Made by a program: the position numbers and the translations under genes. Positions 27,133 to 27,720 of a DNA stretch of 64,000 nt are shown in pieces. The stretch is from the human T2T-CHM13v2.0 reference genome, Homo sapiens. The stretch lies in the NCBI RefSeq assembly GCF_009914755.1, contig NC_060934.1. The stretch is one strand, 5' to 3'. The notes below the pieces were generated by a model. It saw only the letters and a program-made list of their open reading frames with translations, was not told the DNA's origin and ran no database searches. The number at the start of each line of letters is the position of its first letter. The stretch's first letter is position 1.

Positions 27133-27267
27133 CCATTTGCCTTCTAGGCTCATCCCCTCAGTTAAAAGTAACCAAGACATCAGGGTGGAATGATGTCCAC
27201 AGTCAGTGGAGGGGCCTGTGCTCCGCTATTCACAGGGGACCAGCCAAGAGTCATTCAGCTGTGGCAC
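27133..27267 (-). pseudogene. Exon: MIA3 PRD exon homolog (frameshifted)
   Basis: NDS/GWSPVNSGAQAPPLTVD/VTFN*GDEPRRQM(G) vs [21 protein letters not shown]...[13 protein letters not shown](G); donor gtcagc. Confidence 0.82.
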
Positions 27268-27442
27268 GTGAGAAAAACGGTCCTGCCACCCAGCGGGATA
27301 ACTGTTCTCTTTAGTAAGTGCTTGGAACTGTTTCCAGGAAACATAACAATAACCCAACCCAAGCCCTCACCCCAGAAAGGAGAAGCAGGGGTGTGGATTG
27401 TGGAGCAGAAGTTAAGCGGGTGCCTTCCCAGAGAGCTCCTAC

Positions 27443-27537
27443 CTCTCCAGAAAGGGTTCTCTAGCCCTAGCTGTCCCTGGGCTGCCTCCTGACTCATGTG
27501 TCTCTCCAGCACTCCCTGCTTTTCCATCATTTCCTGT
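27443..27537 (-). pseudogene. Exon: MIA3 LLELTQK...NPPRR exon homolog (95 nt, phase 2-1)
   Basis: QEMMEKQGVLERHMSQEAAQGQLGLENPFWR(G) vs [33 protein letters not shown](G); ttcaag|...|gtagga. Confidence 0.75.
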
Positions 27538-27658
27538 CTTGAAGACAGTGAAAGAGTTGACTTGTAGAAGAATTAAAACACTGTTTTCTTTACTAGACAG
27601 TCAAAGCTTCATCTTAAAACAAAAACATCCTTAAAATTTGTCCATCACAATCACCTAC

Positions 27659-27720
27659 CTGTGCTGCTTGCAGGCAGCCTTCCTCTCTGCCATCTCCCTC
27701 TGCAAGGCTTGAGCACAGAG
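27659..27720 (-). pseudogene. Exon: MIA3 LKARAAER exon homolog (62 nt, phase 0-2)
   Basis: LCAQALQREMAERKAACKQH vs [22 protein letters not shown]; cccacag|...|gtaggt. Confidence 0.82.

What the first reader, a model, noticed from the sequence alone, without database searches (positions are those of the whole stretch)
27133..27720. Three MIA3 exons absent from NPIP mRNA are retained here
Seen: exons encoding LCAQALQREMAERKAACKQH, QEMMEK...NPFWR and GWSPVNSGAQAPPLTV lie between the NPIP exon 7 and exon 8 equivalents, with phases 0-2, 2-1 and 1-1. Recalled NPIP splices exon 7 directly to the terminal exon. Inference: NPIP lost or skips these exons, and fossils should exist in NPIP intron 7.
Basis: partly seen in the sequence, partly recalled or inferred. 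Interest (0 to 1): 0.72.

Follow-up and report, generated by a model that had tools for sequence, protein, structure and literature searches.

The report
Relic MIA3 exons in NPIP pseudogene
A non-coding gene on chromosome 10 is an old, broken relative of the fast-evolving human NPIP genes, and it still carries three leftover exons inherited from the MIA3 (TANGO1) gene, two of which the NPIP genes lost through an already published deletion.

Summary
On the − strand, exon A (27720-27659), exon B (27537-27443) and exon C (27258-27133) are homologues of three consecutive 3′ exons of MIA3. They have the same phases and largely the same splice junctions, and they sit in kilobases of colinear exon-plus-intron DNA homology (E 1.4e-59; shuffled and reversed controls reach at most 27 bits).

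The locus (LOC729815) is a transcribed, unprocessed pseudogene. It is a sister paralogue of the NPIP/LCR16a family: about 85% identical to LCR16a and 60-65% to MIA3. Stops and frameshifts have disabled it.

In 27 of 27 human LCR16a copies listed, window 26398-27658 is missing. The break is clean, across a CA(G/T)CACAG microhomology. It removes exons B and C and the GT donor of exon A. Exon A itself survives as a fossil in NPIP intron 7 (57-59 of 62 nt in two copies). MIA3 and the chrX and chr16p12 paralogues keep the stretch, so it was deleted in LCR16a, not inserted elsewhere.

The loss is already published: Cantsilieris 2020 describes exons 7.1-7.3 and a 2.73-kb intron-7 deletion in African apes. 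I found two things only hinted at or absent in print: that these exons come from MIA3, and that the whole NPIP family is a partial genomic duplicate of MIA3. Interest is moderate.

The parts
27937..27999 (-). Equivalent of NPIP exon 6 and of the MIA3 exon [20 protein letters not shown]. It is the 3' part of RefSeq lncRNA exon 27937-28112. In chr10 it ends with an in-frame TGA.
   Evidence: MAFFT alignment with conserved AG and GT. The LCR16a ORF reads [21 protein letters not shown] in the same frame.
27789..27826 (-). Equivalent of NPIP exon 7 (LCR16a ITPSARKPLCNR) and of MIA3 IATHEKKAHENW. It is 38 nt here against 36 nt in all other copies, so it carries a +2 frameshift.
   Evidence: It is an exon of another RefSeq transcript of LOC729815 (hub table).
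27721..27788 (-). 68-nt mini-intron, homologous to a roughly 75-nt MIA3 intron. In LCR16a it is open and read through in the Pfam NPIP model.
27659..27720 (-). Exon A: 62 nt, phase 0 to 2, LCAQALQREMAERKAACKQH. Homologue of the 68-nt MIA3 exon [22 protein letters not shown](K). It is spliced in lncRNA NR_136624.1. A fossil is present in NPIP intron 7.
27443..27537 (-). Exon B: 95 nt, phase 2 to 1, QEMMEKQGVLERHMSQEAAQGQLGLENPFWR. Homologue of the 101-nt MIA3 exon [33 protein letters not shown]. AG and GT are conserved. It is absent from LCR16a.
27133..27258 (-). Exon C relic: 126 nt, phase 1 to 1. Homologue of the 138-nt MIA3 exon (G)[27 protein letters not shown]...SEF. The donor is conserved and the acceptor is shifted. 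The frame is closed by TGA on both sides of MTLGWSPVNSGAQAPPLTVDIIPP. It is absent from LCR16a.
26398..27658 (-). 1261-nt stretch missing from every human LCR16a copy examined. MIA3, the chrX copy and the chr16:20.5 Mb copy have it, wholly or in part.
26929..26965 (-). 3' tail of the MIA3 exon D2 equivalent, with its GTAAAT donor. D1 and the rest of D2 were lost here by a chr10-specific deletion of about 770 nt. The chrX copy keeps both.
23500..25181 (-). Equivalent of NPIP exon 8 and of the first proline-rich MIA3 exon. The acceptor and first codons are shared (VNVA here, VRMA in LCR16a, VNMA in MIA3). It is then frameshifted and continues into a 36-nt tandem array.
25040..34968 (-). Extent of colinear MIA3 homology in the window (chr1:221879093-221897882). 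An EIF5A retrocopy interrupts it at about 29661-30900.

Best explanation
LOC729815 is a transcribed, unprocessed pseudogene of the NPIP family. The family itself began as a genomic, intron-containing duplicate of the 3' part of MIA3 (TANGO1).

The finding's interval holds three of the five MIA3 exons (A, B, C, D1, D2) that lie between the ancestors of NPIP exon 7 and exon 8. The chr10 copy split from the LCR16a lineage before LCR16a suffered a deletion. That deletion runs from the last bases of exon A to a point 1261 nt downstream in chr10 coordinates, across a CA(G/T)CACAG microhomology. It took exon A's GT donor and everything from B through the D2 equivalent.

Without a donor, exon A is stranded in intron 7, and NPIP splices exon 7 to exon 8. 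This stays in the ancestral MIA3 frame, because in MIA3 the five exons total 456 nt, or 152 codons.

In chr10 the exons do nothing for a protein. The copy has a stop in exon 6, a +2 frameshift in exon 7, stops around exon C, its own deletion of D1/D2 and a frameshift in exon 8. Exon A, exon 6, exon 7 and the exon-8 acceptor are still used as splice sites by the lncRNA.

Shown here: the homology, the junction, the polarity of the deletion and the disabling lesions. Inferred: microhomology-mediated repair as the deletion mechanism; donor loss as the cause of exon A being skipped; and that B and C are among the monkey exons 7.1-7.3.
For: NPIP membership:
- Pfam NPIP gives 82 bits (cut-off 27.5) on ORF 27655-27867.
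- The locus is 85% identical to LCR16a over about 3.2 kb.

MIA3 identity and homology:
- The chr1 locus is TANGO1 by PDB 7r3m, E 2.4e-29.
- Colinear blastn gives chr10 E 2e-59 and 3e-39, and the chrX copy E 1e-75 and 3e-139. The controls are clean.
- Splice junctions are conserved base for base.

The deletion:
- The same junction is seen in 4 of 4 LCR16a loci by blastn and in 8 of 8 by direct reading.
- Flanks abut in 27 of 27 copies listed.
- MIA3, chrX and chr16:20.5 Mb carry the stretch.

Placement:
- A tree on 1249 MAFFT columns, rooted on MIA3, groups chr11, chr10 and LCR16a (support 100/99), with chrX outside and the four LCR16a copies as one clade (100/100).

Published agreement:
Against: - Protein-level support for MIA3 is weak. 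Exon B alone is not significant (207 of 2000 shuffles reach its score), and exon A is marginal (27 of 2000).
- Pfam's NPIP profile hits 0 of 7 MIA3 exon ORFs.
- A whole-genome protein search with the exon B ORF did not return MIA3.
- The published deletion is 2.73 kb and is said to remove three exons. Here it is 1.26 kb in chr10 coordinates, an estimated 2.0 kb in chrX coordinates, and it spares exon A. The mapping of A, B, C, D1 and D2 onto ex7.1-7.3 is therefore unresolved.
- No RNA data were available to show whether B or C is ever spliced at chr10.
- The root of the tree rests on a long outgroup branch (0.6 changes per site). A tree on chr10-projected columns rooted differently, which I attribute to reference bias.
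Confidence: 0.88

Rival explanations
1. The three exons here are exactly the monkey NPIP exons 7.1, 7.2 and 7.3 of Cantsilieris 2020, so the finding is nothing more than that published result seen in a paralogue.
For: There are three exons, in the same interval between exon 7 and exon 8, and the same deletion removes or disables them.
Against: The paper says all three map inside the deletion and are removed from all human copies. Exon A is outside the deletion and present in 8 of 8 LCR16a loci read. The ancestral interval held five exons, so 7.1-7.3 may be three of B, C, D1 and D2. The paper's supplementary PDF with the exon figures could not be read.
Confidence: 0.3
2. Window 26398-27658 is an insertion shared by the chr10, chrX and chr16p12 copies, for example a mobile element with an 8-nt target duplication. 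On this reading LCR16a has the original empty site.
For: A short direct repeat flanks the stretch (CAGCACAG and CATCACAG) and occurs once in LCR16a. That pattern alone fits either a target-site duplication or a deletion.
Against: MIA3, the parent gene, has colinear homologues inside the stretch, including exons B and C and intron DNA. The stretch occurs at only 4 places in the genome. The hub's list of the longest masked stretches names none in it. The paper maps it as a deletion that arose in great apes.
Confidence: 0.02
3. The MIA3 resemblance is chance or compositional (coiled-coil and proline-rich low complexity), not descent.
For: The peptide scores for A and B are weak. Many of the strongest tblastn rows are proline-rich noise against the MIA3 CpG island.
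Against: Intron DNA aligns as well as exon DNA (54-65% in both). Seven blocks are colinear over 19 kb in the window and 21 non-repeated blocks lie over 27 kb in chrX, colinear apart from a local triplication and one out-of-order block. Splice sites coincide. Shuffles and reversal give nothing.
Confidence: 0.01
4. The chr10 locus still encodes a protein that uses exons A to C, as an unannotated coding gene rather than a pseudogene.
For: A and B are open in the MIA3 frame with consensus AG/GT. A 584-aa proline-rich ORF exists in the terminal exon. The locus is transcribed (RefSeq lncRNA).
Against: There is a TGA at the end of exon 6, a +2 nt shift in exon 7, TGAs on both sides of the exon C peptide, and a stop after 27 codons in the exon-8 frame. 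The long ORF is the product of a 36-nt tandem array. The sister copies on chrX and chr16p12 have further stops in A and B.
Confidence: 0.03

Closest known systems
NPIP exons 7.1-7.3 and the African-ape intron-7 deletion (Cantsilieris et al. 2020, Genome Biol 21:202, PMC7419210; passages read)
   Same: Extra exons lie between exon 7 and exon 8. They are ancestral and were lost from all human LCR16a copies by one deletion in intron 7. I see the same junction in every human copy examined.
   Different: The paper does not link them to MIA3, and its main text does not mention the chr10, chrX, chr16p12, chr11 or chr7 paralogues. It gives 2.73 kb and three removed exons. Here one MIA3 exon (A) survives next to the junction, and five exons existed ancestrally.
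MIA3 / TANGO1, 3' exons (end of the second coiled coil and start of the proline-rich domain)
   Same: Exon order, phases, splice junctions and intron DNA are colinear. NPIP exons 6, 7 and the start of 8 are read in the MIA3 frame.
   Different: Identity is only 60-65% at DNA level. The SH3 and giant luminal exons are absent from the copy. No protein-family model joins the two. The chr10 copy is non-coding.
Solo LCR16a pseudogene on chr18 (called NPIPBP1 in PMC7419210)
   Same: It is a dispersed, non-coding member of the NPIP family outside the chr16 clusters.
   Different: The chr18 copy is a recent LCR16a transposition: 98% identical to the chr16 copies, and it carries the deletion. chr10 is an old sister lineage at 85% identity and predates the deletion.
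2017 preprint remark of 16-27% similarity between Morpheus protein and MIA3 (bioRxiv 10.1101/116087; passages read)
   Same: It is the only text found that connects NPIP and MIA3.
   Different: [quoted passage not shown] It draws no claim of descent, gives no exon or intron correspondence, and does not involve the 3' exons.

Membership tests
NPIP family (Pfam PF06409; LCR16a core duplicon gene) | Match to the Pfam NPIP model above its gathering score | tested here: met
   82 bits against a cut-off of 27.5, profile positions 161-207 of 207, on ORF 27655-27867. That part of the model corresponds to a read-through of exon 7, the mini-intron and exon A.
NPIP family (Pfam PF06409; LCR16a core duplicon gene) | Exon-and-intron DNA homology to LCR16a | tested here: met
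   83-84% over three blocks (window 29600-28141, 28151-27659, 26397-25077) in 4 of 4 loci. The pairwise figure is 85%.
NPIP family (Pfam PF06409; LCR16a core duplicon gene) | Open reading frame across the NPIP exons | tested here: not met
   There is a TGA in the exon-6 equivalent, a +2 nt shift in the exon-7 equivalent and a frameshift or stop early in the exon-8 equivalent. It is a pseudogene member.
NPIP family (Pfam PF06409; LCR16a core duplicon gene) | Membership of the recent LCR16a clade (at least 98% identity, intron-7 deletion) | tested here: not met
   The locus is 85% identical and lies outside the LCR16a clade (100/100). It has the undeleted state.
MIA3/TANGO1 gene | Colinear homology to the MIA3 3' exons and introns, with shared splice junctions | tested here: met
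MIA3/TANGO1 gene | SH3-like luminal domain and giant luminal exon | tested here: not met
   Window 29500-50000 has no match to chr1:221854845-221855285 or 221861276-221864152. Weak matches at 221856061-221857694 are unconfirmed in other copies.
MIA3/TANGO1 gene | Proline-rich domain in frame | tested here: not met
   The frame is broken 27 codons into the exon-8 equivalent. The proline-rich ORF downstream comes from a 36-nt tandem array.
Monkey NPIP exons 7.1-7.3 (PMC7419210) | Location inside the stretch of intron 7 that is deleted in African apes | tested here: met
   This is met for B and C. It is not met for A, which lies just 5' of the junction.
Monkey NPIP exons 7.1-7.3 (PMC7419210) | Sequence identity with the spliced monkey exons | not testable with these tools
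   No non-human primate sequence is held. The xlsx and docx supplements gave no exon sequences in the passages returned, and the PDF supplement cannot be read.

The most novel reading that the evidence does not exclude
The NPIP/Morpheus gene, core of the LCR16a duplicon and among the fastest-evolving human gene families with no known origin or function, is a truncated genomic duplicate of the 3' part of MIA3/TANGO1. Human NPIPA still reads exons 6, 7 and the start of 8 in the TANGO1 frame, that is, the end of the second coiled coil and the first PPP-containing stretch of the proline-rich domain. The chr10, chrX, chr16p12, chr11 and chr7 loci are surviving intermediates that document the stepwise loss of 152 codons. 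I found no explicit statement of this descent in print. It would give NPIP a testable ancestry-based hypothesis: interaction with ER-exit-site or COPII partners of TANGO1.
Probability: 0.45. Interest if true: 0.6.

Novelty: new member of a known kind. Interest (0 to 1): 0.45.

Why it matters
NPIP sits at the heart of the chromosome 16 duplications behind recurrent autism and developmental-delay deletions. It evolves under strong positive selection in apes, yet its origin and function are unknown.

This chr10 relic, together with the chrX copy, shows base by base where NPIP came from: the 3′ end of MIA3/TANGO1. It also shows how the ape gene lost 152 ancestral codons. One deletion took four exons and the donor of a fifth.

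That turns a published but unexplained structural change (ex7.1-7.3) into an interpretable one. It also suggests what the ancestral protein did. For the chr10 locus itself the result is ordinary: it is a decayed, transcribed pseudogene.

Tried and rejected
- **Whole-genome protein search, exon B ORF.** It returned only family copies. MIA3 was not returned, so peptide searches are too weak here.
- **The search for homologous proteins, same ORF, longer proteins.** The single hit, P0001, is a chimeric metagenome protein: a human exon-B read-through fused to a bacterial PF11799 domain. It is contamination and carries no information.
- **Early guess about exon A.** I thought LCAQALQ... matched the NPIP peptide ...[10 protein letters not shown].... 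The LCR16a ORFs show that peptide belongs to the exon upstream, so I dropped the idea.
- **Pfam hit on the first ORF.** I first read it as showing that exon A belongs to canonical NPIP. One search shows the model covers an intron-retaining read-through, so I corrected this.
- **Selection on exon A.** It is 95% identical to one LCR16a copy, but 4-14% of 62-nt windows are at least as conserved, so there is no evidence of selection.
- **Tree on columns projected onto chr10.** It rooted MIA3 next to chr10, which I judged to be reference bias. The MAFFT tree places chrX outermost.
- **Pfam NPIP against MIA3 exon ORFs.** 0 of 7 matched.
- **Locating MIA3 by its SH3 family.** This failed directly. 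I used the TP53BP2 SH3 hit to estimate the coordinate offset from recalled hg38 positions. It was 40 kb off, and ORF inspection corrected it.
- **Control pieces of the window.** They gave strong blastn hits to the MIA3 region, all of them Alu copies.

Full report
**1. The observation**

| Exon | Window (− strand) | Length | Flanks and notes |
|---|---|---|---|
| A | 27720-27659 | 62 nt | ...CCACAG\| and \|GTAGGT; also an exon of RefSeq lncRNA NR_136624.1 (hub's table) |
| B | 27537-27443 | 95 nt | ...TTCAAG\| and \|GTAGGA |
| C | 27258-27133 | 126 nt | ...CCACAG\| and \|GTCAGC |

**2. What the locus is**

The stop-to-stop ORF 27655-27867 matches Pfam NPIP (PF06409) at 82 bits, against a cut-off of 27.5, over profile positions 161-207 of 207.

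The window's assembly could be searched. Window 24950-29600 matches these places:
- a 99% identical inverted second copy at C10:81116959-81121610;
- 27 LCR16a copies (26 on chr16 and one on chr18) at 82-84%;
- older partial or full copies at C16:20.55 Mb, C23 (chrX):50.37 Mb, C11:3.38 Mb and C7:65.6 Mb at 79-84%.

On shared columns, chr10 is 85% identical to LCR16a and 83-87% to the other old copies. The LCR16a copies are at least 98% identical to each other. LOC729815 is therefore an old NPIP paralogue, not a recent LCR16a transposition.

**3. NPIP gene structure read from an LCR16a copy**

In L009 (C16:14757001-14767000) the open pieces are as follows:
- ...[21 protein letters not shown], followed by GT. 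This is the equivalent of window 27999-27937.
- ITPSARKPLCNR, followed by GT. This is the equivalent of window 27826-27789.
- ...CAG|[20 protein letters not shown].... This is the equivalent of window 25181 downward.

Between the last two, in what is NPIP intron 7, lies LCAQALQREMAERKAAYKHH, a fossil of exon A. It matches at 59 of 62 nt in L009 and at 91.9% (about 57 of 62) in the chr16:11.96 Mb copy.

It also fits the statement in PMC7419210 that the African-ape form has lost ex7.1-7.3.

The Pfam hit is explained. Profile positions 153-207 align to the LCR16a read-through of exon 7, the 68-nt mini-intron and exon A. The model was therefore built on an intron-retaining form. It is not evidence that canonical NPIP mRNA contains exon A.

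**4. The deletion**

Word-9 blastn of window 24950-29600 against four LCR16a loci gives the same three blocks in 4 of 4: 29600-28141, 28151-27659 and 26397-25077. Nothing matches 26398-27658.

In the subject, the second and third blocks abut with an 8-nt overlap. The same abutment holds for 27 of 27 copies listed, with 6 nt for chr18. That tool warns that its counts are lower bounds.

Read directly:
- chr10, left edge: ...AAGCAGCACAG|GTAGGTG...
- chr10, 1261 nt downstream: ...TTCATCACAG|TCCCATC...
- LCR16a: ...AAGCATCACAG|TCCCATC...

The break therefore lies within a CA(G/T)CACAG microhomology. It removes exon A's GT donor, exon B and exon C. In 8 of 8 LCR16a loci read, the donor is gone. In 7 of 8 the AG acceptor of A is still there, and L009 has GG.

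**5. The MIA3 test**

I located MIA3 on chr1 and confirmed it. The SH3 exon at C1:~221854845-221855285 matches PDB 7r3m, 'Transport and Golgi organization protein 1 homolog', at E 2.4e-29.

tblastn of the window's − strand ORFs against the gene gave colinear hits in both coding and non-coding DNA. Among them:
- exon C, TLGWSPVNSGAQAPPLTVDIIPP against [21 protein letters not shown];
- the intron and acceptor before the terminal exon, 60% over 30 residues, E 3e-8.

Lenient blastn gave the following:
- window 29617-26989 against chr1:221891676-221894192, E 2e-59;
- window 26938-26716 against 221896065-221896281;
- window 26319-25040 against 221896604-221897882, E 3e-39;
- chrX copy blocks with E down to 3e-139.

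Controls with the same settings:
- the real query scores 222 bits;
- the reversed query scores 25 bits;
- 20 of 20 shuffles score at most 26.8 bits;
- other window pieces hit only through Alu copies.

**6. Exon-by-exon alignment**

The MIA3 peptides are from the genome ORFs.

| Piece | MIA3 | chr10 |
|---|---|---|
| Exon 6 equivalent | [20 protein letters not shown] | 27999-27937 |
| Exon 7 equivalent | IATHEKKAHENW, 36 nt | 38 nt (+2) |
| Mini-intron | ~75 nt | 68 nt |
| A | [22 protein letters not shown] + 2 nt, 68 nt | 62 nt |
| B | [33 protein letters not shown], 101 nt | 95 nt |
| C | (G)[45 protein letters not shown], 138 nt | 126 nt |

- AG and GT coincide for exons 6, 7, A and B, and for C's donor. 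C's acceptor in the family lies about 10 nt downstream of MIA3's.
- Intron DNA aligns as well as exon DNA (54-65% for both). This is what descent predicts and what compositional resemblance does not.
- Peptide scores alone are uneven. Against 2000 shuffles, C scores SW 53 (0 reach it), A scores 31 (27 reach it) and B scores 23 (207 reach it).
- Pfam's NPIP model hits 0 of 7 MIA3 exon ORFs. The relation is hard to see from proteins, which may be why it is not in the literature.

MIA3 has two more exons before its first proline-rich exon: D1 ([23 protein letters not shown], 69 nt) and D2 ([27 protein letters not shown], 80 nt).
- The chrX copy keeps both, with their splice sites.
- chr10 lost D1 and most of D2 by its own deletion of about 770 nt. 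It keeps only D2's tail at 26965-26929, with the GTAAAT donor.
- A+B+C+D1+D2 total 456 nt, or 152 codons.
- The next exon starts in phase 0 with the same acceptor and first codons in all three: MIA3 VNMA, LCR16a VRMA, chr10 VNVA.
- Joining exon 7 to exon 8 therefore preserves the ancestral frame.

**7. Polarity and placement**

MIA3, the chrX copy and the chr16:20.55 Mb copy all carry homologues of window 26398-27658. Its absence from LCR16a is therefore a deletion, not an insertion elsewhere.

An IQ-TREE analysis on a MAFFT alignment of the 3′ block (1249 columns, 9 rows, MIA3 as outgroup) puts chrX outermost. It groups chr11, chr10 with its duplicate, and LCR16a together (100/99). The four LCR16a copies form one clade (100/100).
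- The chr16:20.55 Mb and chr7 copies lack this block and were not in that tree.
- An earlier tree on columns projected onto chr10 coordinates rooted next to chr10. I regard that as reference bias.
- The outgroup branch is long (0.6 changes per site), so the root is tentative.
- The conclusion that chr10 is outside the LCR16a clade does not depend on the root.

**8. State of the chr10 copy**

It is disabled in several ways:
- a TGA at the end of the exon-6 equivalent;
- a +2 nt shift in the exon-7 equivalent;
- TGA at 27257-27255 and again after ...IIPP in exon C;
- loss of D1/D2;
- a stop 27 codons into the exon-8 frame, with the NPIP-like continuation (...HPFSEWPYLPDLMAGPSGPLMGCQPPPLP) in another frame.

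The sister copies have further stops: chrX in A and at the start of B, and chr16:20.55 Mb in A. The 584-aa proline-rich ORF downstream is generated by a 36-nt tandem array of 38.5 copies.

The RefSeq lncRNA transcripts still use several ancestral junctions: the donor at 27937, both sides of A, both sides of the exon-7 equivalent, and the acceptor at 25181.

**9. Extent of the MIA3 copy**

- In the window, colinear MIA3 homology runs from 34968 to 25040, matching chr1:221879093-221897882.
- The chrX copy matches chr1:221871753-221898448. The order is colinear apart from a local triplication of the first 3 kb and one out-of-order block.
- LCR16a is colinear from 221879093.
- The family is thus a genomic, intron-containing duplicate of the 3′ 19-27 kb of MIA3.

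**10. Literature**

*PMC7419210 (Cantsilieris et al. 2020).* I read passages found by term search, not the whole text. It states that all non-African-ape primates carry three additional spliced exons (ex7.1-7.3). [quoted passage not shown] The deletion arose in the great-ape ancestor. A dog orthologue points to an age of at least 70 million years.

Its main text contains no 'melanoma', 'chr10', 'chrX', '10q22' or 'Xp11', and the paper did not surface in the full-text searches pairing LCR16a or NPIP with MIA3. Its xlsx supplement lists marmoset clones at Xp11.22. Its PDF supplement could not be read.

*bioRxiv 10.1101/116087.* I read passages only. [quoted passage not shown]

*Full-text searches.* The pairs NPIP+MIA3, LCR16a+MIA3, NPIP+TANGO1, 'core duplicon'+MIA3, 'pore complex interacting protein'+'melanoma inhibitory activity' and morpheus+MIA3 returned only that preprint or unrelated papers. 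LOC729815 returned nothing. Subscription journals are not covered, so absence from print is not established.

**11. Verdict**

- The MIA3 origin and the loss or skipping are right.
- The prediction of fossils in NPIP intron 7 holds only for exon A.
- The exon loss itself is published.
- What appears to go beyond print is the MIA3 identity of the exons, the exact human junction with its microhomology and the stranded exon A, the five-exon ancestral interval, and the set of pre-deletion paralogues.

Which of A, B, C, D1 and D2 are the monkey ex7.1-7.3 remains open.

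Noticed in passing
window 29661-30900 (+), within EIF5AL1 exon 29663-33570: The EIF5A retrocopy proper is only about 1.24 kb. Homology to LCR16a and chrX stops at 29660 and resumes at 30901, and the two flanks overlap by about 19 nt in LCR16a coordinates, like a target-site duplication. The rest of the annotated EIF5AL1 3' UTR (to 33570) runs antisense through MIA3/NPIP-like intron DNA.
   Followed up: partly
window 23540-24921 (-): A 36-nt tandem array of 38.5 copies (or 69 nt x 19.7) produces a 584-aa ORF of PPGPHPPPAAVS-like units in the equivalent of the NPIP terminal exon. The chr11 copy has similar units. I did not examine its relation to the NPIP C-terminal repeats.
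   Followed up: partly
G000:C10:81116959-81121610 (+), locus L016: A second, inverted copy of the whole locus lies about 740 kb away on chr10 and is 99% identical. It includes exons A to C, with one substitution in A.
   Followed up: partly
G000:C23:50368328-50403748 (-), loci L012 and L029-L031: The Xp11.22 copy is the best-preserved MIA3 partial duplicate. It matches about 27 kb of MIA3 in largely colinear order, keeps D1 and D2 with their splice sites, and holds three copies of the stretch homologous to chr1:221871753-221875010. The xlsx supplement of PMC7419210 lists marmoset LCR16a clones at Xp11.22.
   Followed up: partly
window 26945-27000 (-): A 16-nt inverted repeat (TTCTGGCTATGTCTTC ... 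GAAGACATAGCCAGAA) brackets the point where chr10 lost about 770 nt (D1 and most of D2). Homology of the chr16:20.55 Mb and chr11 copies to the window also ends or begins there.
   Followed up: no
window 36576-37479 (-): Two blocks match MIA3 5' intron DNA (chr1:221856061-221857694) in colinear order. The chrX and LCR16a copies show no such match, so this may be an old shared repeat or a remnant of a longer original duplicate.
   Followed up: no
protein P0001: A 222-aa protein in the public metagenome protein collection begins with the human exon-B read-through (100% identity) and continues as a bacterial PF11799-domain protein. It is a chimeric contig carrying human contamination.
   Followed up: no
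L009:5187-5210 and other LCR16a loci: Fourteen nt past the deletion junction, LCR16a reads ...CCCTGTTG|GTAACC, a possible substitute donor for exon A. The frame from exon 7 through the mini-intron, exon A and the junction stays open for 131 codons in L009.
   Followed up: no
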